Part shown: positions 33,948 to 61,495 of the stretch, piece after piece
Layout: every line of letters begins with the position of its first letter
Position numbering within the stretch: position 1 is the stretch's first letter
Source of the DNA: Rhynchopus sp. YZ270_cl-10
Lineage: Eukaryota
Assembly: GCA_964035575.1 (NCBI GenBank)
Contig: OZ037839.1
Coordinates: forward strand, 1,612,001 to 1,676,000
Direction of reading: 5' to 3'
DNA length: 64,000 nucleotides
The notes under the pieces: generated by a model
What the model saw: only the letters and a program-made list of their open reading frames with translations
The model's database searches: none
What the model was told of the DNA's origin: nothing
Made by a program: the position numbers and the translations under genes

Positions 33948-34034
33948 TGGGGGGCTCCGCCCCCCAGACCCCCCAGTCGCTTCGCGGCTAAGGGCTGGGC
34001 TAAGCCTGCCCTTCGCCGCGAAGCGCCTGGGGGG
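33947..34034. other. Two adjacent GC-rich hairpins at the satellite boundary
   Basis: CTGGGGGGC-tcc-GCCCCCCAG (33947-33967), followed by nested stems CCCCCCAG/CTGGGGGG, CGCTTCGCGGC/GCCGCGAAGCG and AAGGGC/GCCCTT (33969-34034). Confidence 0.85.
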
Positions 34035-34595
34035 ATGTGGTGTGTAGCATTACAATGTGCAATGATTGCAGTCGTGAAGTATCTGGAGTTACACCGTTGT
34101 GAGGCGTGGAACCTCACAACTTTCCTCTCGTGAGCGACAGAGGTGTGAGTCGTTGCATCACAACACCGTAGAGGTCGTATTTGTACCTTCTTTGCGACAC
34201 TCGTGACCTATCGCTATCGCGAGGGAGGCTCATTTTATTTACTGTGCGACGCTGCTGATTTCGACACGTTGCCGAAGAAGCGATCGCGCTCTCTTCCTAT
34301 TGCGCTCTCTCTGTGTGATTTTGTGTATCCCAAAAGGAGTAATTACCCGAAACATTTTGCCTAAACGTGTGAACGTTGTGAACCTGGAGTCGCTAGCAGA
34401 CAGGAAAAAGAGGATGGGCAGGCAGCGTCTGCCCGACCTGTGTGAAGTGAATAAGTGATTACCTGACAGATGTCTGGGTATCCGTGTGTTCTGTGTGGGT
34501 ATCCATGTCCGGAGTATGTCCCATTGTCCCCCCACCCCCACCAATTGCAAAAAACCGTGAGGGTGCACGATGGCCCATGGACCACCACGTCCTAG

Positions 34596-34785
34596 TTACC
34601 ACCTATGACTAGTCATATGACAAGGTGGATGGCCAGTTACATGACAAGACTAACTAAAGACAAGACCCCTGTATGTAATGAGTGGCGTTAGGCCTTGTCA
34701 TTTGACAGGGGTCTTGTCATTATTTAATCTTGTCATGTAACTAGTCATACCCCTTGTCATTGCTCATACTCGGTTGTGGTGTAAC
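34596..34785. repeat. ~190-bp imperfect foldback built from ATGACAAG/CTTGTCAT motifs
   Basis: AGTTACATGACAAGA/TCTTGTCATGTAACT, GACAAGACCCCTGT/ACAGGGGTCTTGTC and ATGACAAGG/CCTTGTCAT are nested symmetrically around ~34690. Confidence 0.8.
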
Positions 34786-34939
34786 GTACCCTTTGGGGGA
34801 GCACCCCAAATACACGACGGTGAAGTAAACGACATGACATTGTGCTTTACATGTAATTTTTTTTACATGTAAACCACATGTCATTTTATATGTAGTGATT
34901 TTTGTCTGAGGAGATTAGCCTCTGCATATTTTTGTCCAG

Positions 34940-35221
34940 CTGTACTGTACTGTACTGTACTGTACTGTACTGTACTGTACTGTACTGTACTGTACTGTAC
35001 TGTACTGTACTGTACTGTACTGTACTGTACTGTACTGTACTGTACTGTACTGTACTGTACTGTACTGTACTGTACTGTACTGTACTGTACTGTACTGTAC
35101 TGTACTGTACTGTACTGTACTGTACTGTACTGTACTGTACTGTACTGTACTGTACTGTACTGTACTGTACTGTACTGTACTGTACTGTACTGTACTGTAC
35201 TGTACTGTACTGTACTGTACT
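34940..35221. repeat. (CTGTA)n microsatellite, ~56 copies
   Basis: Perfect 5-bp period. Confidence 0.98.
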
Positions 35222-35230
35222 CCCAATCCC

Positions 35231-35517
35231 CTGTGTATACTGTGTATACTGTGTATACTGTGTATACTGTGTATACTGTGTATACTGTGTATACTGTGTA
35301 TACTGTGTATACTGTGTATACTGTGTATACTGTGTATACTGTGTATACTGTGTATACTGTGTATACTGTGTATACTGTGTATACTGTGTATACTGTGTAT
35401 ACTGTGTATACTGTGTATACTGTGTATACTGTGTATACTGTGTATACTGTGTATACTGTGTATACTGTGTATACTGTGTATACTGTGTATACTGTGTATA
35501 CTGTGTATACTGTGTAT
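35231..35517. repeat. (CTGTGTATA)n microsatellite, ~32 copies
   Basis: Perfect 9-bp period, 9 bp downstream of the CTGTA tract. Confidence 0.98.
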
Positions 35518-35912
35518 GCTACCTGTGTGTGACCGTACCCCAGATGGTCTGAAGAGTGATCTGACCATATTCTCCAGGTACAATATATACCCGGAGAATC
35601 CATTGGAGCAAGAATTTTGCACTTTTGAGCACCACAGATTACATGTTGCCATTTTTGCGGTCATAATATTTTTGCAAATGGCAAAGGCAATCCTTAAGGA
35701 ATTACAGGGAAAACCACCGTTTTGGGTCTCTCTGTCTATGGGCGATTGGGTTTTAGTCACTCAACGAATCTGCTCGAATTTTTTTGTGTGTAGATAGGTT
35801 TTACCAGAAAAATCAATTAAAGCAAGAATTTTACGGTTTTGAATAGTTGTTCTTTATTTAAAAAAATACCCAGTTTGGACAAAAACTCAGGACCAAGTGT
35901 AAAAACGTTTAT

Positions 35913-37362
35913 CGAAGCGAGGTTGGCAACTGTGAAGGATCCTGAGGTGGCTTCTCTGCTTCTTCAGGCGGAGGTTGCGACTGTTATTCCGACCTCGTTC
36001 TTGAGCGAAGCATCGTTTACGAGACTTGATCTCTCTGCTGTGTCTGTTGTGACGCGAATTGAGCACGACTTCCTCTACGGGTGTGCGTCGGTGGAAACCG
36101 TTGACTTGTCGGCATTGTGCAACGTTACGCACATTGGGAATAACTGTCTCTCTTACAGCAAATCGTTGACAAGCCTTGACATGTCAGGGTTCACTGGTGT
36201 GACGGTGATACGGGAGTCGTTCCTCAAAGGAAGTGGCGTGACAGCGCTTGACTTATCCGCGATGACGAGTGTGACGGAGGTTGGTGCAGGCTTTCTTTAC
36301 TCCTGCAAGTCGTTGGAAAGGATTGACATCTCAGGATGGCGCAGAGTCACGCACATTGAGAAGGACTTCTTCACGAACTGCACCTCGTTGGCAACGATTG
36401 ATTTATCAGCTTTTTGCAGTGTCACCAATATCGGCTTCAGGTTTCTCTTCAACTGCAAGTCGTTGACCACCATCAGCTTTTCAGGGACGAATGTGACGGA
36501 AGTTGCGAGTCAATTTTGTAGGGCCTGCACCTCGTTGGAAACGATTGACTTGACAGCACTGCACAGAGTTGTGAAGGTAGGGTACAACTTTCTCTGGGGT
36601 TGCACCTCGCTGGGAAGTATCGACCTACCAGGTTTTGCATCCATCGGGCCCAACTTTCTTTTTCAGTGCACATCATTGAAAACAGTTGATTTATCAGTGT
36701 TGTGCAGCATCACGCACATTGAGCGTGGCTGGATGCAAGAGTGCTCCGCGTTGACAACAGCAGACTTCTCTGGACTGAGCAATGTTACGCAGATTGATGA
36801 ACGTTTCCTGCAAGATTGCACATCCTTGACTACGCTGGACATGTCAGGTTTTGGCAGGAATACAGAGATACAACACGACAGCCTGCTCAACTGCAACGCA
36901 CTCACAACAGTCGTCTTGCCAGGCAACATCGACATTGACGAGATGTTGTCTCTCCCGAATGGAGACCCTAGAATGAGCACCTACAAGGAGGCCTTCTATG
37001 TACGTGTGCGTGAGATTTACGCAAGGTTTACGGAACAGTTCGAAGATGTGCGGATAGAAGCTTTTGAGGCAGTACGAACAGACGTGTCTGGAGATGCAAG
37101 ACAATGTATTGCATTGAAAGCAGGACAAGAACGAGAGAAGGGATTGATGCAAGCACAAGAGGACAACAAAGAGGAACAAAAAGAGGATTTGGAGAGTTGG
37201 GGGCAGCATAAACAGGAGCAGGACAAGCTGGATGAACAGAGGGGTTTGGGGGTTTTGTGCAGTTATGTTACGAATACTTCAGTCATAATATTCAACTTCA
37301 GTTTTGGATACACCTGTAAGCTCCTGATAAGGGTCTTATTTACACTTTCTCTCGCAAGATGA
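35913..37362 (+). pseudogene. Ubl-LRR family copy A, 5'-truncated (Ubl domain missing), LRR frame still open
   Basis: Homology to the paralogues starts abruptly at CGAAGCGAGG (EARLAT). Upstream is TAAAAACGTTTAT plus the transposon end. About 13 BspA-type LRRs and the conserved EAFYVRVREIYARF tail. Confidence 0.75.
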
Positions 37363-41170: not shown

Positions 41171-42035
41171 TCCTCCACTCAGCGGAGGATATTTCCTTCA
41201 GGGGTGTTTTATTTTTTTTTTGGGGGGGGCGTTTTTAAAACCAGGGTATTAGGGTGCAATCCAAATGAACAAGATAAAACAAAAAAGCTTGCGTTTCTTT
41301 TATCGAACAGATTTTATTCTCCGACCCGTACCCAAAACGTAAACACCACTTTGAATCAGAAATAATATTTTCTTTTCTTTTTTCTTCCACACGCGCTTGG
41401 TTTTTGTGTTTCATTAATTATTATCAAAAAGCTTTCGACGCAAAACGTTTCCCCATGTATTGCACGGGAAACAATATATATGACAAACAGGTGCAGGGTG
41501 GTTCCGTGCATATCATAGAACCCGGCACCTTGTGTGTCTTCCAAAAACCAAAAGCGTTGTGTGTGAAGTTTTGAAGGAAGGAAAAATAAAATTTTTTGAC
41601 AAAAACTGGGTTTTCTGGGTTTCTCTCCTGGGTGACGAAAACTAGTGTTTCTGGAGAAAACCTCCACCGTTGACGGACAGTCACCTGAACCTAGCCCCAC
41701 GTCTGCCAGCAACACCCACAGACAGAGCCTGATGCAGGAGGTGTGGGTGTGGCATCAGTGGTTGAGGTGCCACCATTGTCCGAGGGGCTCTTCACACTCG
41801 TCAAGGGGGACGGGACGTCGCATCTCGTTGAGTTGTGTTGTTGATGGTGGGGTGGAGGGGAAGGGGCAGTACTATGTTCTTGTCTCGCAGGGAGATGGTC
41901 ACCGTTTATCTCACGGTAGTCTCAAAGCGTTGTTTCCCTTTGGTTCAATCCTGATTAGTGAGGGCGTAGTGTGATCTGGTGCAACTTTCTCACCCTTTAT
42001 TTGTGTACATTTTCAGGAGAACTCACAACACAACA

Positions 42036-44399
42036 ATGATGAAGTTGGTCGCAACTGTGAAGAAATTGTTCAAAGCAGGTGCGGATGTACGTGACACAGA
42101 TGCGCAAGGAAACACGTGTCTTATCCGTGCAGCGTATCAGGGACACACCGATACTGTGCGCTATCTTGTTAGCTTGCCGGAGGTGGACCTGAATCACGAA
42201 GGCAGCTACAACTACACTGCGTTGCACTTTGCTGTGGACAGAAAACATGCAGACGTGGTGCAGGTGCTCATTGATGCAGGGGCAGACATTGACACAAAGA
42301 ATGATAAAGGACGCTCGCCTCTGCACTTTGCTAGCTTTTCAGGAGAAGTCACGAATATGAAGATGTTGGTCGAGGCAGGTGCGGATGTACGTGCCACAGA
42401 CTACGATGGCAACACGTGTCTCATCCGTGCAGCGTATTTTGGACACACCGATGCTGTGCGCTATCTTCTGAGCTTGCCGGAGGTGGACCTGAATCACCAA
42501 GGCAGCCACAACTACACTGCGTTGCACCAGGCTGTACAGGAAAAACATGTAGACGTGGTGCAGGTGCTCATTGATGCAGGGGCAGACACTGAGACAAGGA
42601 ATGATGAAGGACACTCGCCTCTGCACTTGGCTAGCTTTTCAGGAGAACTCACAACTGTGAAGATGTTGGTCGAGGCAGGTGCGGATGTGCGTGTCACAGA
42701 AGCCGAAGGAAACACGTGTCTCATCCGTGCAGCGTATCAGGGACACACCGATACTGTGCGTTATCTTGTTAGCTTGCCGGAGGTGGACCTGAATCACCAA
42801 GGCAGCTACAACTACACTGCGTTGCACCATGCTGTACAGGAAAAACATGCAGACGTGGTGCAGGTGCTCATTGATGCAGGGGCAGACATTGAGACAAAGA
42901 ATGATGACGGACGCTCGCCTCTGCATGTGGCTAGCTTTTCAGGAGAACTCACAACTGTGAAGATGTTGGTCAAAGCAGGTGCGGATGTACGTGCCACAGA
43001 CGCCGAAGGAAACACGTGTCTTATCCTTGCAGCGTGTTGTGGACACACCGATACTGTGCGCTATCTTGTTAGCTTGCCGGAGGTGGACCTGAATCACGAA
43101 GGCAACAGGAACAGCACTGCGTTGCACCATGCTGTACGGGAAAAACATGCCGACGTGGTGCAGGTGCTCATTGATGCAGGGGCAGACATTGACACAAAGA
43201 ATGATGACGGACGCTCGCCTCTGCACGTGGCTAGCTTTTCAGGAGAACTCACAACTGTGAAAATGTTGGTCGAGGCAGGTGCGGATGTACGTGCCACAGA
43301 CGCCGAAGGAAACACGTGTCTCATCCGTGCAGCGTATTTTGGACACACCGATGCTGTGCGCTATCTTGTGAGCTTGCTGGAGATGGCCCTGAATCACGAA
43401 GGCAGCAGGAACAGCACTGCGTTGCACCGTGCTGTGGTAAGAAATCATGCAGACGTGGTGCAGGTGCTCATTGATGCAGGGGCAGACACTGAGACATGGA
43501 ATGATGAAGGACACTCGCCTCTGCACTTGGCTAGCTTTTCAGGAGAACTCACAACTGTGAAGATATTGGTCGAGGCAGGTGCGGATGTACGTGCCACAGA
43601 CGCCGAAGGAAACACGTGTCTTATCCGTGCAGCGTATCAGGGACACACCGATACTGTGCGCTATCTTGTTAGCTTGCCGGAGGTGGACCTGAAGCACCAA
43701 GGCAGCAGGAACAGCACTGCGTTGCACTTTGCCGTACAGGAAAAACATGCAGACGTGGTGCAGGTGCTCATTGATGCAGGGGCAGACATTGAGACAAGGA
43801 ATGATGACGGGCACTCGCCTCTGCACGTGGCTAGCATTTTAGGAGAACTCACAACTGTGAAGATGTTGGTCAAAGCAGGTGCGGATGTACGTGCCACAGA
43901 CACCAGAAGAGACACGTGTCTTCTCCTTGCAGCGTGTCATGGACACATCGATACTGTGCGCTATCTCGTTAGCTTGCCGGAGGTGGACCTGAAGCACGAA
44001 GGCAGCTACAACCACACTGCGTTGCACTTTGCTGTGGACAGAAAACATGCAGACGTGGTGCAGGTGCTCATTGATGCAGGGGCAGACACTGAGACATGGA
44101 ATGATGAAGGACACTCGCCTCTGCACTTGGCTAGCTTTTCAGGAGAACTCACAACTGTGAAGATATTGGTCGAGGCAGGTGCGGATGTACGTGCCACAGA
44201 CGCCGAAGGAAACACGTGTCTTATCCGTGCAGCGTATCAGGGACACACCGATACTGTGCGCTATCTTGTTAGCTTGCCGGAGGTGGACCTGAAGCACGAA
44301 GGCAGCTACAACCACACTGCGTTGCACTTTGCTGTGGACAGAAAACATGCAGACGTGGTGCAGGTGCTCATTGATGCAGGGGCAGACACTGAGCGTTAG
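42036..44399 (+). CDS. Ankyrin-repeat protein, ~8 x 100-aa units of 3 ANK repeats each, 3' end truncated
   Basis: GNTCLIRAA / TALHxAV / SPLHxAS ankyrin motifs with an exact 300-nt period. The ORF stops mid-unit (ADTER*), where unrelated sequence starts at ~44394. Confidence 0.85.
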   Translation: MMKLVATVKKLFKAGADVRDTDAQGNTCLIRAAYQGHTDTVRYLVSLPEVDLNHEGSYNYTALHFAVDRKHADVVQVLIDAGADIDTKNDKGRSPLHFASFSGEVTNMKMLVEAGADVRATDYDGNTCLIRAAYFGHTDAVRYLLSLPEVDLNHQGSHNYTALHQAVQEKHVDVVQVLIDAGADTETRNDEGHSPLHLASFSGELTTVKMLVEAGADVRVTEAEGNTCLIRAAYQGHTDTVRYLVSLPEVDLNHQGSYNYTALHHAVQEKHADVVQVLIDAGADIETKNDDGRSPLHVASFSGELTTVKMLVKAGADVRATDAEGNTCLILAACCGHTDTVRYLVSLPEVDLNHEGNRNSTALHHAVREKHADVVQVLIDAGADIDTKNDDGRSPLHVASFSGELTTVKMLVEAGADVRATDAEGNTCLIRAAYFGHTDAVRYLVSLLEMALNHEGSRNSTALHRAVVRNHADVVQVLIDAGADTETWNDEGHSPLHLASFSGELTTVKILVEAGADVRATDAEGNTCLIRAAYQGHTDTVRYLVSLPEVDLKHQGSRNSTALHFAVQEKHADVVQVLIDAGADIETRNDDGHSPLHVASILGELTTVKMLVKAGADVRATDTRRDTCLLLAACHGHIDTVRYLVSLPEVDLKHEGSYNHTALHFAVDRKHADVVQVLIDAGADTETWNDEGHSPLHLASFSGELTTVKILVEAGADVRATDAEGNTCLIRAAYQGHTDTVRYLVSLPEVDLKHEGSYNHTALHFAVDRKHADVVQVLIDAGADTER

Positions 44400-49109: not shown

Positions 49110-49300
49110 GAGAGTTAGTGTTCACCCTTTTTCAAGCTTTTGTGCGTCTATTTTCCTTTTCACGTTTTGCAGTCTTTTGAGCAACAAATAAGAGTAACGA
49201 GTCTCTCGAGCATGTTATCCCCCCATTTTGTTGTATCTTGCCTCCCTCCTCCTCCTTCTCAACACTTACCCCACAACAGAGCAACACTTCACTCGAAACA

Positions 49301-50782
49301 ATGGAACTGTGTGTGCAGGGATATGATGATGAAACCAAATACGTGATTGAGGTGGGTGAGAAGGACACAACGGAGACGATGCGGCAGAAGGTGGCGTCTG
49401 CAACAGGGTTGTGCGAAGACAGCTTCCGCATGGGCTTCGGAGGGAAGGAGGAAGGAGAGGACATCACAGAACTGAGTGCTGGAGACACAGTCGTGTTGAC
49501 GAAAACTACTAAGTACCAATCTGTTGAGGAACTTCGTGCCTTGGGTGAGACAGACATTTCCGAAGCGAGGTTGGCGACTGTGGAGGATCCTGAGGTGGCT
49601 TCTCTGCTTCTTCAGGCGGAGGTTGCGACTGTTATTCCGAACTGGTTCTTGAGCGAAGCATCATTTACGAGACTTGATTTCTCTGCTGTGTCTGGTGTGA
49701 CGCGAATTGAGCAAGGCTTCCTCTACGGGTGTGCGTCGGTGGAAACCGTTGACTTGTCGGGATTGTGCAACGTTACGCACATTGGGGACAACTGTCTCTA
49801 TGAGTGCACATCGTTGACAAGTCTTGACGTGTCAGGGTTCACTGGTGTGACGGTGATAGGGAAGGCGTTCCTCCAAGGAAGTGGCGTTACAAATCTTGAC
49901 TTATCCGCGATGACGAGCGTGACGACGGTTGGTAGGGACTTTCTTGCCGACTGCAATTCGTTGGAAAGGATTGACATCTCAGGATGGCGCAGAGTCACGC
50001 ACATTGAGAACAACTTCCTGTCGAACTGCACCTCGTTGGCAACGATTGATTTATCAGCTTTTTGCAGTGTCACGAAGATCGGCTTCGAGTTTCTCTTCAA
50101 CTGCTCGTCGTTGACCACCATCAGCTTTTCAGGGATGAACAATGTGACGGACATTGGGAACAGCTTTTGTTGGGCCTGCACCTCGTTGGAAACGATTGAC
50201 TTGACAGCACTGCACAGGGTTGTGAAGGTGGGTTCTGGCATCGGGACCAACTTTCTTTTTGAGTGCTCATCATTGAAAACAGTTGATTTATCAGTGTTGC
50301 GCAATATCACACACATTGGGCCAGTCTGGATGGAAGGGTGTTCCTCGTTGACAACAGCAGACTTCTCAGGACTGAGCAATGTTACGCAGATTGAGAGTGG
50401 TTTCCTGAAAGATTGCACATCCTTGACTACGCTGGACATATCAGGTATAGGCAGGAACACAGAGATCCATCGCCGCTTCCTGATCAACTGCAACGCACTC
50501 ACAACAGTCGTCTTGCCAGGCAACATCGACATTGACGAGATGTTGTCTCTCCCGAATGGAGACCCTAGAATGAGCACCTACAAGGAGGCCTTCTATGTAC
50601 GTGTGCGTGAGATTTACGCAAGGTTTACAGAAAAGTTCGAAGATGTGCGGATAGAAGCTTTTGAGGCAGTACGAACAGACGTGTCTGGAGATGCAAGACA
50701 ATGTATTGCATTGAAAGCAGGACAAGAGAGAGGGAAAAAAAGAGGAACAAAAAGAGGATTTGGAGAGTTGGGGGCAGCATAA
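49301..50782 (+). CDS. Ubl + LRR protein, copy G (12 LRRs, 493 aa)
   Basis: Same architecture, with LRR9/10 fused (VVKVGSGIGTNFLFEC). Confidence 0.85.
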   Translation: MELCVQGYDDETKYVIEVGEKDTTETMRQKVASATGLCEDSFRMGFGGKEEGEDITELSAGDTVVLTKTTKYQSVEELRALGETDISEARLATVEDPEVASLLLQAEVATVIPNWFLSEASFTRLDFSAVSGVTRIEQGFLYGCASVETVDLSGLCNVTHIGDNCLYECTSLTSLDVSGFTGVTVIGKAFLQGSGVTNLDLSAMTSVTTVGRDFLADCNSLERIDISGWRRVTHIENNFLSNCTSLATIDLSAFCSVTKIGFEFLFNCSSLTTISFSGMNNVTDIGNSFCWACTSLETIDLTALHRVVKVGSGIGTNFLFECSSLKTVDLSVLRNITHIGPVWMEGCSSLTTADFSGLSNVTQIESGFLKDCTSLTTLDISGIGRNTEIHRRFLINCNALTTVVLPGNIDIDEMLSLPNGDPRMSTYKEAFYVRVREIYARFTEKFEDVRIEAFEAVRTDVSGDARQCIALKAGQERGKKRGTKRGFGELGAA

Positions 50783-52017
50783 ACAGGAGTAGGACAAGCT
50801 GGATGAACAGAGGGGTTTGGGGGGTTTGGTGTTTTGTGTGAAGAACACTTCGGTTAAAATATCAACTTCATATTTGGATTCACTTTTGAGCTGGGGTGGA
50901 ATATTTGGCAGGTTTGGTGCACAACTCTGACAAGACGGAGTGTCCCACCACTTTTTGTGAACAACGTGTCTGCCCAGGGTCTTTTCTACCACACATAGTT
51001 AAGTGAAAAACAAACAAGAAAGCTATTTTGTTGTATCTTGCCTCCCTCCTCCTCCTTCTCAACACTTACCCCAAAACAGAGCAACACTTCACTCGAAACA
51101 ATGGAACTGTGTGTGCAGGGATATGATGATGACACCAAATTCGTGATTGAGGTGGGTGAGAAGGACACAACGGAGACGATGCGGCAGAAGGTGGCGTCTG
51201 CAACAGGGTTGTGCGAAGACAGCTTCCGCATGGGCTTCGGAGGGAAGGAGGAAGGAGAGGACATCACAGAACTGAGTGCTGGAGACACAGTCGTGTTGAC
51301 GAAAAATACTAAGTACCAATCTGTTGAGGAACTTCGTGCCTTGGGTGAGACAGACATTTCCGAAGCGAGGTTGGCGACTCCCGACGGCGGACCGCCCCCC
51401 ATAGCACATTTTTGCGGTGCACGGGCGTACGGGATTACTAGGGGATGGCTAGCTACCATGAACCCCTGTCCAAAGTATTAATATTTCTCGAAAATTCTCT
51501 AAGTACGCAGAAAACACACGGGTGTGCCCCAAAACACATTTTTTCCAGTGTCCCGCAGTGTCCCACCACTTTTTTTCGCTTTTGGTGGGAAAAAAAATAC
51601 AAAAAAAAATACATGGTTCTGTAGGGGCCGAGTACAATGGCGTTTTTCACGTGATTTTCATGATTTTTCAAAGTGGCCAAATATCATGTAAAATACTGCC
51701 TCCCACCCAACATTCTCTCCACAACGTCGTTCTGACACCCATATGTCCAAACAAAAGATGTTTTTATATATTTTTTTCCACACCCAGCGTATCATAAAAA
51801 TGCACATATCCACCAAAATCCACTAACCCACCGCAGGCAAATTTCTTAACGATGTGTACTTCTGAATTGATGCTGAGGGATTATGCGGCACCCGCTGCGT
51901 AGTTCTGTGGGGTAAAACGCCACCTGGGGTCACAAGCCCCAGCTCCTACCTTTACAGGTAGGAGAGCTGTTGAGTGACCCATCGGACAATCGTTTGAGGG
52001 GTCTTGGTGAAGAATTT

Positions 52018-54803
52018 CGAAAATTGATAAAAACGAATAAGCGTCTCACAATTGAACCCAGATTCTGCTCCAGATGTGATGTCTTGGTCTGTTTCTGCCT
52101 GAATTGTGTAAGGGGGCCCGATTTTGTTGCGGAAAATTACGAAAATTATTGAAAACCAATAAGCGCCTCACAATTGAACCCAGATTCTGCTCCAGATGCG
52201 ATGTTTTGGTCTGTTTCTGCCTGAATTGTGTAAGGGGGCCCGATTTTGTTGCGATAAATTACGAAAATTGATGAAAACAAATATGCGTCTCACAATTGAA
52301 CCCAGATTCTGCTCCATATGCGATGTTTTGATGTGTTTCGACCTGAATTGTGTGAGGGGGCCCGATTTTGTTGCGGAAAATTACGAAAATTGATGAAAAC
52401 TAATATGCGTCTCACAATTGAACCCAGATTCTGCTCCAGATACGATGTTTTGATGTGTTTCTGCCTGAATTGTGTAAGGGGGCCCGATTTTGTTGCGGAA
52501 AATTACGAAAATTATTGAAAACCAATAAGCGCCTCACAATTGAACCCAGATTCTGCTCCAGATGTGATGTCTTGGTCTGTTTCTGCCTGAATTGTGTAAG
52601 GGGGCCCGATTTTGTTGCGGAAAATTACGAAAATTATTGAAAACCAATAAGCGCCTCACAATTGAACCCAGATTCTGCTCCAGATGCGATGTTTTGGTCT
52701 GTTTCTGCCTGAATTGTGTAAGGGGGCCCGATTTTGTTGCGATAAATTACGAAAATTGATGAAAACAAATATGCGTCTCACAATTGAACCCAGATTCTGC
52801 TCCATATGCGATGTTTTGATGTGTTTCGACCTGAATTGTGTGAGGGGGCCCGATTTTGTTGCGGAAAATTACGAAAATTGATGAAAACAAATATGCGTCT
52901 CACAATTGAACCCAGATTCTGCTCCAGATGCGATGTTTTGATGTGTTTCTGCCTGAATTGTGTAAGGGGCCCCGATTTTGTTGCGGAAAATTACGAAAAT
53001 TATTGAAAACCAATAAGCGCCTCACAATTGAACCCAGATTCTGCTCCAGATACGATGTTTTGATGTGTTTCTGCCTGAATTGTGTAAGGGGGCCCGATTT
53101 TGTTGCGGAAAATTACGAAAATTGATGAAAACTAATATGCGTCTCACAATTGAACCCAGATTCTGCTCCAGATTCGATGTTTTGATGTGTTTCTGCCTGA
53201 ATTGTGTAAGGGGGCCCGATTTTGTTGCGGAAAATTACGAAAATTATTGAAAACAAATATGCGTCTCACAATTGAACCCAGATTCTGCTCCATATGCGAT
53301 GTTTTGATGTGTTTCGACCTGAATTGTGTGAGGGGGCCCGATTTTGTTGCGGAAAATTACGAAAATTATTGAAAACCAATAAGCGCCTCACAATTGAACC
53401 CAGATTCTGCTCCAGATACGATGTTTTGGTTTGTTTCTGCCTGAATTGTGTAAGGGGGCCCGATTTTGTTGCGGAAAATTACGAAAATTATTGAAAACCA
53501 CTAAGCGCCTCACAATTGAACCCAGATTCTGCTCCAGATACGATGTTTTGATGTGTTTCTGCCTGAATTGTGTAAGGGGGCCCGATTTTGTTGCGGAAAA
53601 TTACGAAAATTATTGAAAACCAATAAGCGCCTCACAATTGAACCCAGATTCTGCTCCAGATGCGATGTTTTGATGTGTTTCTGCCTGAATTGTGTAAGGG
53701 GGCCCGATTTTGTTGCGGAAAATTACGAAAATTATTGAAAACCAATAAGCGCCTCACAATTGAACCCAGATTCTGCTCCAGATACGATGTTTTGATGTGT
53801 TTCTGCCTGAATTGTGTAAGGGGGCCCGATTTTGTTGCGGAAAATTACGAAAATTATTGAAAACCAGTAAGCGCCTCACAATTGAACCCAGATTCTGCTC
53901 CAGATGCGATGTTTTGGTTTGTTTCTGCCTGAATTGTGTAAGGGGGCCCGATTTTGTTGCGGAAAATTACGAAAATTGATGAAAACAAATATGCGTCTCA
54001 CAATTGAACCCAGATTCTGCTCCAGATGCGATGTTTTGATGTGTTTCTGCCTGAATTGTGTAAGGGGGCCCGATTTTGTTGCGGAAAATTACGAAAATTA
54101 TTGAAAACCAATAAGCGCCTCACAATTGAACCCAGATTCTGCTCCAGATACGATGTTTTGATGTGTTTCTGCCTGAATTGTGTGAGGGGGCCCGATTTTG
54201 TTGCGGAAAATTACGAAAATTGATGAAAACAAATATGCGTCTCACAATTGAACCCAGATTCTGCTCCAGATGCGATGTTTTGATGTGTTTCTGCCTGAAT
54301 TGTGTGAGGGGGCCCGATTTTGTTGCGGAAAATTACGAAAATTATTGAAAACCAATAAGCGCCTCACAATTGAACCCAGATTCTGCTCCAGATGCGATGT
54401 TTTGGTCTGTTTCTGCCTGAATTGTGTGAGGGGGCCCGATTTTGTTGCTGAAGATTACGAAAATTGATTCTAACCAATAAGCGTCTCACAATTGAACCCA
54501 GATTCTGCTCCAGATATGATGTGTTGATGTGTTGCGACCTGAATTGTGTGAAGGGACCTGATTCTGTTCCTGCAGAATGTGACAATTCACGAAAACCAAT
54601 AATCGTCTCACAATTGAACCCAGATTCTGCTCCAGATGCGATGTTTTGGTCTGTTTCTGCCTGAATTGTGTGAGGGGGCCCGATTTTGTTGCTGAAGATT
54701 ACGAAAATTGATTCTAACCAATAAGCGTCTCACAATTGAACCCAGATTCTGCTCCAGATATGATGTTTTGGTCTGTTTCGATCTGATTTGTGTGATGGGG
54801 CCG
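52018..54803. repeat. 122-bp tandem repeat, ~23 diverged copies, inside the TIR element
   Basis: CTCACAATTGAACCCAGATTCTGCTCC at 52045, 52167 and onward. A 488-bp (4-unit) higher-order duplication is visible (52196 vs 52684). Confidence 0.97.
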
Positions 54804-54889
54804 GCTCAATATCTGATTATGTTACAGATATAATTGAACTTAGTGTGTGTCGTTATTTTTTAATTTTACTTTGTTACTGGGGGGGGGGC

Positions 54890-54940
54890 GAATAAGAGAT
54901 CAGGGGTGAATAAGAGATCAGGGCCGAATAAGAGATCAGG
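54890..54940. repeat. Three 15-bp direct repeats GAATAAGAGATCAGG at 18-bp spacing
   Basis: 54890-54904, 54908-54922 and 54926-54940. Confidence 0.9.
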
Positions 54941-55094
54941 TTGAGATTTTGGGGGTATTTTCAACTTACCTTCCTTCACCCCCCCCTGTAAGGGCAACCG
55001 TAGGTGAAGTAAGGTATAGTATTGAAATCGATGTGGGGGGGGAGTAAAGGGTCAATTTTACAAAACCAGATTTTGAGGAAAATTTTAGCCGAAA

Positions 55095-55797
55095 ATGGGC
55101 CCCACGTATAAGCAACCGGGCTCATATTTCTCAAAATTTAAGTGGTCAAAAAATTGTCCAATTTTCGAGATTGACCCCACCACTGCACGGGACCCAAACA
55201 CTGAGACGACCGGATTTGTGGTGAAGGACACGGACAGGGCTGAGAAGCGTTTCGGCCTGTTGGACGACGCCATCGACCACGCCACCAGAGGGCAACCATT
55301 TTCCTGGGAAGCTCCGCTGGTACTTGCCGTGAAGCGGGGAAACTTCAAGGGAAGGTTCCACACTGCTGCCACCCTGCAGGTGTACGCCATCCGGAAGGTG
55401 AACCGCAGAGTGACGGACGCTGTGCTGGCGGATGAGGCACGTGCTTGGGCAGCCCGTTGCTTGGAGACGTTGACGGAGACGCTGAATGCAGAGATTCAGC
55501 ACGTGATGAATGCGGCACGTGAGGCTGTGAGTATCCGTGTTGATGAACTTCGGGACTACCTGTGGCAGCGGAGGCGAACGCCGCACGTTGTGTCTTCCTT
55601 GTGTGACTTGGTGCGCAGGGGCATGGGTAGTGCTGTGCAGTGTGCGAAGCTGCGCGGTGGCAGCGACACAGTCCTGAGGAATTTGCTGGAGGACACAGTG
55701 GGTGCTACGAACGAACGCACGAACGACATGTCTGAGTCTGAAGATGACCGATCAGGAGCGGTGAGCTGCGAATTGTTCCCTGTGTCGGAGCCACCAC

Positions 55798-55829
<32 letters not shown>

Positions 55830-57284
55830 GCACCACCACCAGTACCAGCAGAAAGTCCGAGGAAGCGGAGGAGAGCTGGGACTGATGCATCCCAGAATGT
55901 TGCAAAGAAGCGTAAGCCTGCACCGAAGAACGGTCAGCAGCAACAGAAGCAGCAGCCACCACAGAAGAAACAGAAGCCACAGAAGCCACAGCAGAAGCCA
56001 CAGCAACCACAGCAGCCACAACAGCCACAGCAGAAGCCACAGCAACCACAACAGCCACAGCAGAAGCCACAGCAACCACAGCAGCCACAACAGCCACAGC
56101 AGAAGCCACAGCAACCACAGCAGCCACAACAGCCACAGCAGAAGCCACAGCAACCACAACAGCCACAGCAGAAGCCACAGCAACCACAGCAGCCACAACA
56201 GCCACAGCAGAAGCCACAGCAACCACAGCAGCAGCAGAACCCACACCAGCCAGGCGTTGGGGAGGCGGAGGAGATGGAGCAATTGCAGGCTGCCCTTGAT
56301 GCAACCCTCCACCAGCCTCCACCAGTGCCGAGGGGGTTCCATAACTTCGGCGTGACGTGTTTCATCAACTCTGTTTTACAGTGTTTAGTGTACACGGACT
56401 CGTTTGTGAAGTCCCTCTCGAATGCTGGCCCTTTTTCGAGGGCGATACGCGAAGTGGTGGCTCAGTCAGTGGCTGCCGATGCACAAGATGTGATCCGCCC
56501 TACGAGCATACGCGACGCATTAAATGTGAAGGAGCCTGGGTTCACGTATACGCAGCAAGACTGCCACGAGTTTTTTCTTGTGCTGACGGACGCCCTCGAG
56601 GTGGAGGCAAGACGTGGGAAAGTTAAACATCCCACCAACGAAGTGCTGGATCATGAGACTTTGTCTGTGGCCTCGGCACGAGTAGTGAACTCTTACCTCG
56701 AGAGTTCTAATTGTCCAGCAATGGGTTTTCTTTATCTACAGTATGTCCAGACAGCCACTTGTTTTGGCTGTGACACTAAGTGCCTCACCGTCACCCCCTC
56801 ACACAATATGATATTGCACTTCCCCACGCGGGACACCGGTTCATTGCCAGTGGCATTGGGTGCGTTACTTCAGCACCTCTCTAGGGTGGAAGAAATGCAC
56901 GCAGAGCAGGAGTACAAGTGCCTGACCTGCCACCCGCAGACCTTCGCAGCCAGAATGGTGACACGTGTGATGCGGCTGCCAAATGTTTTGGCAATGCAAT
57001 TGGCGAGGTTTCACGACCCGCTCAATAAGATCGAGACGATCGTTGAACTTCCGCATGAGTTGGACATGGCACCATACGTGCACTCTGACTCTCTAGAGGT
57101 GCAACTTCGGTATGACCTGTATGGTGTTGTCTGTCACCACGGACACAGGATGGGGCACGGCCACTACAGTGCATACGTGAAGTCAGAGGGTACGTGGTAT
57201 CATTGCAATGATTCAAGTGTGACAAAGAACCCGAGGCTTCTCTTTTCAGAGGCATACCTTCTTTTTTATCATCGTCGGGGGTGA
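55095..57284 (+). CDS. Ubiquitin-specific protease (USP, peptidase C19) with basic NLS-like motif and Q/P-rich linker; true start uncertain
   Basis: Cys box GFHNFGVTCFINSVLQCL, QQDCHEF, Zn-ribbon CFGC/CLTC, His box YDLYGVVCHHG..GHYSAYVK, WYHCNDSSV and AYLLFY. PRKRRR/AKKRK basic motif. The first ~28 codons overlap an AT-rich inverted repeat and may be non-coding. Confidence 0.88.
55935..56238 (+). repeat. Coding low-complexity repeat (PQQ/PQQK)n within the USP ORF
   Basis: CCACAGCAG/CAA/AAG 9-12-nt units. Confidence 0.9.
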
Positions 57285-60200
57285 TTCTTTTTGGTGCATC
57301 GAGACGTTACGTGTTCTTTATAAGATTGTCTGATGGAGGCAGTATCGGCGACAGTGGGGGAAATAGAGGGGGGTATGAGTTCAGAGAGACTGGGGTTATT
57401 GTCTCAGGACCGAGTCAGGTAGTTGAACTTCATCCTTTTTTAAATAGTGTGGATCTTTGCAGTCGTCGGTTATGTCTGAAAATTCTTAAGTCCACTTTGT
57501 GAGGGCCTTTCATTAACATTAAAGGCCACTTTTGTTTTTTTTTTTCACGAATTGTTTCTCTCTCGCCTTGTCTTCATTTCAAGTTATGCCACACCCCTCT
57601 CAGCAGCCTGCTGATCAGAGTAAATGTTAAAGTATCAGCCTTTCTAGGTGTTCTTGAGTGAACAATGCAAGCTTCCTCTCCAAAGCTTTTCTGTTGCGAT
57701 TCTTTCTATTTGTTCCGATTTAGCCTTTTCACAAGTTGTGTAATATTTGCAAGCACTCTGTTTTGTCAGTTTCTCTTCCTTCTTCGACCAACAAAGATAC
57801 CACACCACCCCAGACCCTTTCCAATTTTTCATTTCCTCTATTCTTCCCATCCAAGCCCTCCCCACACAATTCTGTTCCAGATGTAAATCTTGCCATAATT
57901 AAACCATTTCTGTAATCTGTGATCGTGCCGCAGGCGCAAGCGGCACTTGAAACATTTGAAACAACATTGTATTGTGCTAATTGGTCGCCACCTGAAGTAT
58001 CCGTAATTGAACTAGTTATCAAATCTGTGGTCAGTCTCATGGACGAATCATTGAATGCTGCATGCGCTGCCGACAATTGAAACGTTTGAAACAATATTGT
58101 ATTGTACCAATTCACGCGAGAGCCCCCAACCCCAAAATTCTGGGAGGAAAAAAAGGGGGAAATAAAAAATAAAAAAAAAATAAAAAAAATGCCGGAAAAC
58201 GCCTAAGTACAAAATAATACTTTGGACAGCTTTTTGTGAAGGAATTACCCTAGCTATCCACCCCCTAGGATTAGTATCTTTTTTTGAGAGAACCCAAGAG
58301 CGGCCAGGTCCTGGACAAGTACGTTGTGCTTTTAGACCTACAAACTGTCTGGGGTGGTGGGACCTCGGGGCGAAGGGTGCTTCCCGGGACCCCAATATCC
58401 TACCACAAGGAGCTCGAGTCGTGCATGGAATGCAGGGTACTCTGAGCCGATTACTTCCACAAAACTCCCAGATCCCAAGACCTCCACGGGGGGCAGGCCT
58501 CCACGGCAACCCGCGACCGCCGACACCTTAGCTCCGTACTGCCTCTGTCTGTAACCTGCCGGTCCCCCACCTACCTACGCTTTTTGTGGTGTCTTTTTAC
58601 GACGGTGGACCAAGGGGCTTTGCAGTGCAGTCAACGCCGACGGAGCGAGACTCGATTGTGACCGGGTGAAAAGGGAACCTTAGCCAGCGCTAACCAGCGG
58701 CAGTTTTGACTCAGGGAAGGAGTTTCTCACCGCAGACTGGCGACACACCCCCACTTTTTCGGGGTGGCTGCATTCCTCTTCGGAACGGGGTGTTCCATCC
58801 TATTTTTAAAAACGTTTATCGAAGCGAGGTTGGCGACTGTGAGGGATCCTGAGGTGGCTTCTCTGCTTCTTCAGGCGGAGGTTGCGACTGTTATTCCGAA
58901 CTGGTTCTTGAGCGGAGCATCGTTTACGAGACTTGATCTCTCTGCTGTGTCTGGTGTGACACGAATTGAGCACAACTTCCTCTACGGGTGTGCGTCGGTG
59001 GAAACTGTTGACTTGTCGGGATTGTGCAACGTTACGCACATCGGGAGTTGCGTTCTCTCTTACAGCACCTCGTTGACAAGTCTTGACATCTCAGGATGGC
59101 GCAGAGTCACGCACATTGAGAACAACTTCCTCCAGAACTGGACCTCGTTGGCAACCATTGATTTATCAGCTTTTTGCAGTGTCACGAAGATCGGCACCGC
59201 CTTTCTCGTCAACTGCAAGTCGTTGACCACCATCAGCTTTTCAGGGATGACGAATGTGATGGAAATTGAGGACAACTTTTGTTCATGCTGCACCTCGTTG
59301 GAAACGATTGACTTGACAGCACTGCACAGGGTTGTGAAGGTGGGGTACGGCTTTCTTACGAGGTGCAGATCGCTGGGAAGTATCGACCTTTCAGCTTTCG
59401 GCAGTGTCGCTGTCATTGGGTTCAACTTTTTCAGTGCTCATCATTGAAAACAGTTGATTTATCAGTGTTGCGCAGCATCAAGTGCATTGAGCGAAACTGG
59501 ATGCACGGGTGCTCCGCGTTGACAACAGCAGACTTATCAGGACTGAGCAATGTTGAGAACATTGCGACACGTTTCCTGGATGCGTGCACATCCTTGACCA
59601 CGCTGGACATGTCAGGTATAGGCTGTGACACAAGGATCGGCGACGACTTCCTGCTCGACTGCAACGCACTCATAAGAGTAGTATTGCCAGGCAACATCGA
59701 CATTGACGAGATGTTGTCTCTCCCGATTGAAGACGATGATACGAGTGAAGAAAGCATTGCCAGAAGCGAGGCCTTCTATGTACGTGTGCGTGAGATTTAC
59801 GCAAGGTTTACGGAACAGTTCGAAGATGTGCGGATAGAAGCTTTTGAGGCAGTACGAACAGACGTGTCTGGAAGTGCAAGACAATGTATTGCATTGAAAG
59901 CAGGACAAGAGAGAGAAGGGATTGATGCAAGCACAAGAGGACAAAGAAGAGGAACAAAAAGAGGATTTGGAGAGTTGGGGGCAGCATAAACAGGAGCAGG
60001 ACAAGCTGGATGAACAGAGGGGTTTGGGGGGTTTGGTGATTTGTGTGAGTTGTTTTTTTTACAAGACATGTGTGCATTTCTAGTGGTTCAAACCAGTACG
60101 AACATTACTTCAACACACAAAGTATTATTGTTATCCACAACAACCGTAGTTGGGTTGTGAGGACGTGGCACATGGTGTGCACACCACGCTGCGCATATGC

Positions 60201-60559: not shown

Positions 60560-61495
60560 ATGAGCCTCAAACTCGTAAAGTCTATGTGGGGAGTGGACGA
60601 GCTTGCTGACCCTGCCCTTCGCAAGACTATGTTCGCACGCGTCGTGGCAGAGGGCTACGAAGCCGTGGACATGCACGCTGTATGCTGGCGGCACCCTGGC
60701 GTGCTTGACGACCTGCACACTGCGGGGCTTGCCCTGGTAGCAACGATACACACGACGTCTGTCTGTGACGCAGGGTTCGAAGGGTTCAAGGTTATGACGG
60801 CATGGGGTGTTCATGAGCACCTAGCGTCGTTTACGATGCTTGCAAACGAGGCTGCCAAAATGGGTGCCATCGCGATCAACGCACACAGCGGTGTCGATGG
60901 GTGGAGCGTCGACGAGGCCCGCACCTACCTCCGCGGCGCGCTTGCTGTGGAACGCTCTTTGTCCCCATCCGTCCCCATCTTCCACGAGACGCACCGCCTG
61001 CGTCTCTTCTGGAGCCCCTTCAACCTGCGCGATGTGCTGCAAGGTGCTGACGACCTGGCCGACATTAAGCTGAACTGCGACATCTCACACTGGGTTGTCT
61101 GTTTGGAACGACTCTTTGGGAGTGGATCATCGATTGCAGGAGCACAGCACGACCCATGGTGGCCAGAGGTGCTGGGGATGCTCAAGGCGCGTTGTGGCAT
61201 GATCCATGCGCGTGTGGGGTATGGAGAAGGCTCGCAGGTGCCCAACCCCGCAGCACCTGAGTATGCAACAGAGCTAACCGCCTTCCTCGGGTACTGGAAG
61301 GAGATCGTGCAGGCGCAGGTGGCAAGGAAAACGCCCAGCATTGTAGTCCCGGAGCACGGCCCCTGGCCGTATCAGCAGAGTGTGCCGTTTGCAGCGACGG
61401 CACCGAACCACAGCATCTGGGAGGCAAATGAGTTTGTGAAGACGGTGGTGGCGGAACGCTTCCCGCAGTGGGTGGAGGAGGTGGGGGAGGTGTGA
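60560..61495 (+). CDS. Xylose isomerase-like TIM-barrel protein (sugar phosphate isomerase/epimerase family), 311 aa
   Basis: Motifs KSMWG, INAHSG, HETHR, DISHW, IHARVG..QVPNP and PEHGP. The ATG at 60560 follows a pyrimidine-rich CAG. Confidence 0.8.
   Translation: MSLKLVKSMWGVDELADPALRKTMFARVVAEGYEAVDMHAVCWRHPGVLDDLHTAGLALVATIHTTSVCDAGFEGFKVMTAWGVHEHLASFTMLANEAAKMGAIAINAHSGVDGWSVDEARTYLRGALAVERSLSPSVPIFHETHRLRLFWSPFNLRDVLQGADDLADIKLNCDISHWVVCLERLFGSGSSIAGAQHDPWWPEVLGMLKARCGMIHARVGYGEGSQVPNPAAPEYATELTAFLGYWKEIVQAQVARKTPSIVVPEHGPWPYQQSVPFAATAPNHSIWEANEFVKTVVAERFPQWVEEVGEV

What the first reader, a model, noticed from the sequence alone, without database searches (positions are those of the whole stretch)
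51438..58268. 6.8-kb transposon with bipartite, asymmetric-spacer (10 vs 21 bp) TIRs and a 5-bp TSD
Seen: each end has an 18-bp outer box and a 15-bp inner box, separated by 10 bp on the left (51456-51465) and 21 bp on the right (58230-58250). The 11-bp difference is about one helical turn. The TSD is GATTA (a 7-bp GGATTAc/g reading with TAGGGG ends is also possible). Known: 5-bp TSDs with bipartite, unequal-spacer ends typify Transib/ProtoRAG and the RAG 12/23 signals, but those start with CAC, whereas this element starts CTAGGGG. Inference: an unassigned DNA transposon family with an RSS-like end geometry.
Basis: partly seen in the sequence, partly recalled or inferred. Interest (0 to 1): 0.75.

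Follow-up and report, generated by a model that had tools for sequence, protein, structure and literature searches.

The report
Diplonemid transposon carrying a deubiquitinase gene
This is a real 6.8-kb jumping-DNA insertion in a marine protist (diplonemid) that has no recognisable transposase but carries a ubiquitin-removing protease gene, and its unevenly spaced end signals likely tell a hAT- or P-type transposase which end is left, as in the fly P element, rather than marking kinship with the RAG immune recombinase.

Summary
Observation confirmed: outer boxes 16/18, inner boxes 15/15, spacers 10 and 21 bp, GATTA on both sides. The element sits inside a 604-bp dispersed repeat that splits a Ubl-LRR gene; 4 of 4 laid runs hold uninterrupted copies with a single GATTA, so it is a true insertion and a 4-bp CTAG target is excluded. 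It belongs to a multi-copy family with diverged relatives. It holds a 122-bp array and a USP deubiquitinase frame with intact catalytic motifs, but no transposase domain. Host: a diplonemid. The outermost base is unresolved: this locus fits CTAG ends with a 5-bp duplication perfectly, but the family-shared contig starts at the T and one other flank has T for C, which fits hAT-like TAG ends with a 7-bp duplication (6/7 here). Transib/RAG membership fails (no CAC, AT-rich target). Unequal spacers are already known in P elements (9 and 21 bp), and hAT has 5-, 6- and 7-bp lineages. No autonomous partner could be sought (no genome held). A new variant of a known kind; moderate interest.

The parts
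51101..51379 (+). 5' part of the interrupted host Ubl-LRR gene (from its first Met)
   Evidence: 51025-51379 is 98.9% identical to the intact paralog at 49225-49579; paralog carries ubiquitin-like and BspA-type LRR domains
51361..51379 (+). left copy of a 19-bp direct repeat around the outer element
51380..51437 (+). 5' part of the outer 604-bp dispersed repeat, the target of the transposon
51433..51437 (+). left target duplication GATTA (7-bp reading: 51432-51438, last base mismatched)
   Evidence: single copy in empty sites
51438..51455 (+). left outer box (true first base 51438 or 51439, unresolved)
   Evidence: family-shared contig starts at 51439
51456..51465 (+). left spacer, 10 bp
   Evidence: crossed without gaps by two diverged relatives
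51466..51480 (+). left inner box, 15 bp
52013..54779 (.). internal tandem array, 122-bp unit, 22.7 copies, mean pairwise difference 7%
54956..55196 (+). single monomer of another tandem repeat; supplies the in-frame ATG at 55095
   Evidence: P0139, P0140, P0145-P0152 map to both ends of it in permuted order
55095..57284 (+). open frame (731 codons stop to stop from 55089): uncharacterised helical N-terminus, Q/P-rich linker, USP/UCH peptidase domain (residues 416-727) with Cys424, His692, Asn707/Asp708
58215..58229 (-). right inner box, 15 bp
58230..58250 (-). right spacer, 21 bp
58251..58268 (-). right outer box (true last base 58268 or 58267)
58269..58273 (+). right target duplication GATTA (7-bp reading: 58268-58274)
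58274..58819 (+). 3' part of the outer repeat; no inverted ends; 10-13 contigs per run go on into other flanks behind its last bases in 3 of 4 runs
58820..58838 (+). right copy of the 19-bp direct repeat
58839..59989 (+). 3' part of the host LRR gene, with a frameshift near 59440

Best explanation
A 6.8-kb cut-and-paste DNA transposon with no recognisable transposase of its own inserted into a short dispersed repeat in a diplonemid, and it is likely moved in trans by a DDE transposase of the hAT/P fold rather than by a Transib/RAG enzyme. Shown: paired two-box ends, an insertion scar against empty sites, several non-identical copies plus diverged relatives, a USP gene and an array inside. Inferred: the transposase's catalytic core grips the outer box and cuts at its tip, while a separate DNA-binding domain (BED- or THAP-like) grips the 15-bp inner box; the 10- versus 21-bp spacing would keep the inner box on the same helical face while making left and right ends non-equivalent, as in the P element. 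Inferred: the USP gene is a passenger or accessory gene carried over from a larger parent element. The outermost base is open: about 50:45 between CTAG ends with a 5-bp duplication and TAG ends with a 7-bp duplication carrying one mismatch; the mechanism above holds under both.
For: Ends and chance control. Empty site with a single GATTA in 4 of 4 runs (3 studies at most). Family: element contigs at depth 694-1113 in X1 and 402-1064 in X4 against 98-128 for diverged relatives; the tool warns that depth is no copy number, but substitutions that split the contigs (e.g. 57752-57767, 51700-51790) show several non-identical copies. No transposase: 1 of 62 stop-free frames of 45 aa or more has a Pfam hit, and that is the USP (the middle of the array and 55800-56250 were not scanned). 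Boxes kept while the spacers are unalike; left spacer crossed with 0 gaps by two relatives with 13 differences in 107 nt and 9 in 68 nt. Precedent: P element spacers of 9 and 21 bp (PMC7776569); Hermes asymmetric subterminal sites bound by BED domains (PMC10368747); hAT termini have A at position 2 and G at position 3, as TAG does (PMC1131882 legend of Fig. S7); hAT5/6/7 (PMC12730594).
Against: No transposase was found, so the family is inferred from ends alone. PMC1131882 says the 22 hAT families it aligned have no second conserved block, whereas this element has one. P elements make 8-bp duplications and, from recall, start with CA. CTAG fits neither hAT nor P termini; only two unchecked notes of this scan describe CTTAG ends with 5-bp duplications and a hAT/P-fold enzyme. 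Gap-free alignment over 68-107 nt at 87-88% identity is weak evidence of a fixed spacer. The right spacer was not seen in any relative. The D. papillatum genome paper names only TATE, MULE and Helitron proteins among DNA transposons (passages).
Confidence: 0.6

Rival explanations
1. Boundary rival inside the best explanation: an ordinary hAT element (hAT7-like) with TAG...CTA ends and a 7-bp duplication whose left copy has one changed base (C for G), by later mutation or imprecise repair at the joint.
For: The high-depth 124-nt contig of run X1 begins exactly at 51439; a contig of X2 runs into another flank with T at the place of 51438. 6 of 7 match. TAG fits the hAT terminus rule; hAT7 exists.
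Against: Needs a mismatch in a young duplication that also happens to complement the base at the other end; the 5-bp reading needs none. The X1 and X2 signals may come from one copy with a mutated terminal base. X3 record 17 has C at 51438 but ends 29 nt further out, which fits either start equally. Only one other flank was visible; 93 loose-end rows were hidden.
Confidence: 0.42
2. A Transib/RAG-related element with a true 12/23-type pairing rule.
For: Perfect 5-bp duplication at this locus; two boxes; 11-bp spacer difference. Some Transib families have 12/23-like ends (PMC1131882, PMC8355894).
Against: No CAC start, which is perfectly conserved in Transib and essential in RSS; no heptamer; target is AT-rich (1 G/C in 5) where Transib and RAG prefer GC-rich targets. 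The whole CMCT clade mostly starts CA. No RAG1/Transib domain inside.
Confidence: 0.05
3. The unequal spacing has no function: the two boxes are binding sites that tolerate any distance, and the 11-bp difference is a historical accident that looks like a helical turn.
For: Only one right end is in view; only two diverged left ends were seen; hAT subterminal sites are often scattered.
Against: The left spacer length is kept in relatives 12-13% diverged; the difference is one turn, as in P (12 bp) and RSS (11 bp).
Confidence: 0.3
4. Moved by some other DDE family (Tc1-type with 5-bp duplications, Ginger2, Academ, MULE).
For: An unchecked note of this scan reports asymmetric two-box ends with a 5-bp duplication on a Tc1-type family (e1-9814023); MULE proteins are reported in D. 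papillatum; deubiquitinase-type passengers are known in Ginger elements (search listing only).
Against: From recall, Ginger ends are TGT, MULE duplications 8-9 bp and Academ duplications 3-4 or 9-10 bp; none was tested against a source here.
Confidence: 0.2

Closest known systems
Drosophila P element (P superfamily)
   Same: Terminal repeat plus an internal transposase site at unequal distances, 9 and 21 bp, against 10 and 21 bp here (PMC7776569)
   Different: P has 31-bp TIRs and 8-bp duplications; its inner site is 10 bp; its termini start CA (recalled). No THAP transposase found here.
hAT superfamily, including hAT5, hAT6, hAT7
   Same: Short imperfect TIRs (Hermes: 17 bp with two differences; here 17-18 bp with two), TAG start under the 7-bp reading, 5-7-bp duplications known, asymmetric subterminal sites
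   Different: One long (15-bp) inverted inner box instead of many 4-bp subterminal repeats; CTAG start under the 5-bp reading is not hAT-like; no transposase to place on a tree.
Transib / ProtoRAG / RAG recombination signals
   Same: Two-box ends with unequal spacers and a 5-bp duplication under the CTAG reading
   Different: No CAC heptamer, no A-rich nonamer at 12/23, AT-rich target, boxes of 18 and 15 bp rather than 7 and 9.
Unnamed CTTAG-ended, 5-bp-duplication elements noted elsewhere in this scan (e1-7362806, e1-7359641)
   Same: Near-identical first bases (CTTAG against CTAG) and 5-bp duplication; reported hAT/P-like fold
   Different: Unchecked AI notes from other genomes; no sequence look-alike was returned; those carry their own transposase.
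Protease-carrying transposons (UCH, OTU and Ulp1 in Helitron-like elements; OTU and Ulp1 in Ginger)
   Same: A ubiquitin-family cysteine protease rides in the element; UCH is reported as stably captured in HLE2 (PMC11417382, passages)
   Different: Here a USP sits in a TIR element with a target duplication; my one search for this pairing listed only Helitron and Ginger papers.

Membership tests
TIR cut-and-paste DNA transposon (general) | Paired inverted ends beyond chance | tested here: met
TIR cut-and-paste DNA transposon (general) | Target duplication against an empty site | tested here: met
   single GATTA in uninterrupted copies of the outer repeat, 4 of 4 runs
TIR cut-and-paste DNA transposon (general) | Other copies in other flanks | tested here: inconclusive
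   several non-identical copies; one other left flank shown (X2) and one diverged relative with 29 nt of other flank (X3); no second copy with both ends seen
Transib/RAG | CAC at terminal positions 1-3 | tested here: not met
   CTA or TAG; feature from PMC1131882
Transib/RAG | 5-bp duplication | tested here: inconclusive
   5/5 at this locus, but family start may be one base in
Transib/RAG | GC-rich target | tested here: not met
   GATTA; one site only
Transib/RAG | RAG1/Transib transposase | not testable with these tools
   none inside the element; genome not held
hAT | Terminus with A at position 2 and G at position 3 | tested here: inconclusive
   met if the element starts at 51439, not met if at 51438
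hAT | Duplication of 8 bp, or 5, 6 or 7 bp in named lineages | tested here: met
   5/5 or 6/7; 8 bp excluded, 3/8; lineages from PMC12730594. Not diagnostic alone.
hAT | BED-DDE-hATC transposase in an autonomous partner | not testable with these tools
P superfamily | Internal transposase site at unequal distance from the two TIRs | tested here: inconclusive
   geometry matches (10/21 against 9/21) but binding is not shown
P superfamily | 8-bp duplication (7 bp in Galileo-type members, recalled) | tested here: inconclusive
   8 bp not met; 7 bp 6/7
P superfamily | CA termini (recalled) | tested here: not met
USP/UCH (C19) deubiquitinase | Pfam UCH domain with Cys-box, His-box and Asn/Asp | tested here: met
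   PF00443 E 1.6e-44, profile 2-254 of 254; motifs align to human USP2, 3nhe, E 9e-28
USP/UCH (C19) deubiquitinase | Expression and activity | not testable with these tools
   no assay tool

The most novel reading that the evidence does not exclude
A diplonemid member of an unnamed DDE-transposon lineage with CT(T)AG ends and 5-bp duplications that enforces a 10/21 one-helical-turn pairing rule, evolved independently of RAG and P, and that spreads an active USP deubiquitinase as an accessory gene.
Probability: 0.15. Interest if true: 0.7.

Novelty: new variant of a known kind. Interest (0 to 1): 0.38.

Why it matters
Diplonemid TIR transposons are close to undescribed: the D. papillatum genome paper lists only TATE, MULE and Helitron proteins and defers end-level annotation (passages), and two searches listed no paper on diplonemid TIR families. 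This is a young family with a clean empty site. If the 10/21 spacing is enforced, it would be a further independent case of a one-turn end-pairing rule beside RAG/Transib and P, and a small testable system for how such rules arise. About ten near-identical copies of a catalytically intact-looking USP would also be a case of a TIR element amplifying a deubiquitinase. If the ends are TAG with 7-bp duplications, it is an ordinary hAT derivative with cargo.

Tried and rejected
No genome held, so no genome-wide count of ends or search for a partner. Strict two-box pattern: 0 hits in viral and metagenome contigs. Loose pattern: 0 viral; 32 metagenome loci, none with the full boxes and none with a BLAST hit to the window, so all 32 dropped as chance. 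Rfam at E up to 5 over 33000-64000: 13 matches, all below gathering score. USP homolog searches gave only distant proteins, 24-44% identity, none with a transposase domain listed (6 hits; 10 hits among 565-2000 aa proteins); weak evidence. N-terminal region: 6 hits in the representative library, 4 of them spurious translations of the repeat monomer, 1 a short true relative, 1 unrelated; no usable Atlas hit in two searches; single-sequence model pLDDT 55, all helical, not searched further. No RNA holder listed. No look-alike among earlier findings of the scan. Rejected: 4-bp CTAG target with GGGG ends (empty site lacks CTAG); 8-bp duplication; that the 19-bp repeat is the duplication of one 7.4-kb element (the outer part exists without the insert and at far higher depth). 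A search for the piggyBac precedent listed nothing, so it is not used as evidence. Papers not held and not seen: Kojima 2020, Yuan and Wessler 2011, Hickman 2010, 2014 and 2018; the idea that a hAT-type cut leaves one donor base that could explain the mismatch is recalled and unsourced. The two ends were laid separately, so no run could show a joint across the whole element. No supplementary files were read; terminal alignments in the supplements of PMC1131882 and PMC12730594 may bear on the family assignment.

Full report
Observation. The outer boxes match at 16 of 18 bases, the inner boxes at 15 of 15, the spacers are 10 bp (51456-51465) and 21 bp (58230-58250) and do not resemble each other, and GATTA stands at 51433-51437 and 58269-58273. 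A lone inverted 15-mer is expected by chance in this window (mean 1.6 per simulation), but 0 of 298 simulated ones had a second box of at least 15/17 within 30 bp.

Setting. The element lies in a cluster of Ubl-LRR paralogs. The host gene breaks at 51379 and resumes at 58820 with a 19-bp direct repeat. Between these lies a second, outer element of 604 bp without inverted ends, and the 6.8-kb element sits 58 bp inside it. The closest named relatives of a neighbouring gene are from Rhynchopus euleeides (63%), Flectonema neradi (59%) and Lacrimia lanifica (58%), so the host is a diplonemid. No genome is held.

Empty site. Because the outer element is repeated, uninterrupted copies exist. In 4 of 4 runs laid on the right end, contigs come in at 58268 from the outer element's 5' part and read through a single GATTA with no CTAG. 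This shows a true insertion and removes the third symmetric reading, GGGG ends with a 4-bp CTAG target. These are paralogous empty sites, not the empty allele of this locus. In 3 of 4 runs, 10-13 contigs leave the outer element's 3' end into unlike flanks.

Family. Contigs of the element stand at depth 694-1113 in run X1 and 402-1064 in X4, against 98-128 for diverged relatives in the same runs. The tool warns that depth is no copy number; taken roughly it suggests on the order of ten copies, and substitutions shared across runs show that they are not identical. Two diverged left ends cross the 10-bp spacer without a gap (13 differences in 107 nt; 9 in 68 nt), and none of the 12 indel rows shown lies in it (6 hidden). 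For the right spacer none of 12 rows shown lies in it, but 48 were hidden and no relative was seen there, so it is untested.

The terminal base. At this locus CTAG ends give 5 of 5 and TAG ends give 6 of 7; the empty site has G where the left flank has C. Against the 5-bp reading, the high-depth 124-nt contig of X1 starts exactly at 51439, as expected if copies differ at 51438, and one X2 contig runs into another flank with T at that place. Both could stem from one copy with a mutated first base. A diverged X3 contig has C there but ends 29 nt further out, which fits either start equally. Only 24 loose-end rows were shown and 93 hidden. For the 7-bp reading a young duplication must carry a mismatch that also complements the other end. 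I put the odds at about 50:45.

Contents. A 122-bp array of 22.7 copies fills 52013-54779. One long frame, 55089-57284, ends in a full-length USP domain (PF00443, E 1.6e-44) whose Cys, His and Asn/Asp motifs align with human USP2. Its first 32 codons lie in a monomer of another tandem repeat, and a true relative matches only from 55191, so the 5' end is likely chimeric. The N-terminal 185 residues have no Pfam or Atlas match and fold poorly. Of 62 stop-free frames scanned, only the USP has a Pfam hit. The element is therefore non-autonomous as far as Pfam can see.

How it likely works. Shown: ends, scar, copies, cargo. Inferred: a transposase encoded elsewhere binds the outer box with its catalytic core and the inner box with a separate DNA-binding domain; a spacer difference of one turn keeps the phase but makes the two ends different, so that a left end pairs with a right end. 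The conservation of both boxes around unrelated spacers supports two-site recognition; the pairing rule itself is not shown.

Comparison. Transib and RSS ends start with an invariant CAC and prefer GC-rich targets (PMC1131882, passages; PMC8355894, passages); neither holds here, so it is not filed there, though it may work in a like way. The P element has spacers of 9 and 21 bp that its reviewers already liken to 12/23, with 8-bp duplications (PMC7776569, passages). Hermes has 17-bp imperfect TIRs and asymmetric subterminal sites (PMC10368747, passages). hAT lineages with 5-, 6- and 7-bp duplications are named (PMC12730594, passages), and Repbase classes non-autonomous elements by duplication length and the first 11 bases (PMC4455052, passages), which I could not run. 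UCH is a known captured domain in Helitron-like elements (PMC11417382, passages). PMC10161547 and PMC12621601 (passages) describe no diplonemid TIR family; PMC5499845, PMC6900584 and PMC4763223 (passages) confirmed only the shared hairpin chemistry. Two unchecked notes of this scan describe CTTAG ends with 5-bp duplications and an unnamed hAT/P-fold transposase; this is a lead that keeps the CTAG reading alive, not support.

Verdict. A real, young, non-autonomous TIR transposon of a diplonemid with a USP passenger and P-like end geometry. The RSS-like look is not diagnostic and has precedent. The superfamily stays open until a partner transposase is found; hAT/P fold is the best bet. New variant of a known kind, interest 0.38; the bold reading (unnamed CT(T)AG lineage with an enforced 10/21 rule) has probability about 0.15.

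Noticed in passing
window 51380-51437 and 58274-58819: A 604-bp high-copy dispersed repeat with a 19-bp direct repeat, no inverted ends and many different 3' flanks; likely a short retroposon. A likeness of its 5' end to ingi-type ribozyme leaders is recalled only and untested; Rfam found nothing on the interrupted copy.
   Followed up: partly
window 35901-35932: A second LRR paralog is cut off at the very same target position and is preceded by the same last 13 bases as the outer repeat, but by different sequence further up: possible target preference or a rearranged older insertion.
   Followed up: no
window 54956-55196: One monomer of a tandem repeat that occurs as arrays on other long ENA contigs (10 proteins in 2 clusters). 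It supplies the ATG of the USP frame, and a true relative (P0141) matches only from 55191, its residue 8, so the gene's 5' end looks chimeric.
   Followed up: partly
window 1-33947: A 406-bp satellite, about 83 copies, ending next to short inverted repeats and (CTGTA)n and (CTGTGTATA)n tracts at 33969-35517.
   Followed up: no
window 35821-59989: Tandem cluster of at least seven Ubl-LRR paralogs with one ankyrin-repeat gene at 41970-44399.
   Followed up: no
window 56584-57106 and 51486-51632: Runs hold a diverged relative of the USP region (649-nt contig, about 82-87% identical in the laid parts) in 3 of 4 runs, and a left-end relative that skips 145 nt in 4 of 4 runs: older members of the family, or the host source gene.
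   Followed up: no
window 60560-61495: Sugar-phosphate isomerase/epimerase-like gene whose closest named relatives are diplonemid, followed by many bacterial-type proteins at 30-37%.
   Followed up: partly
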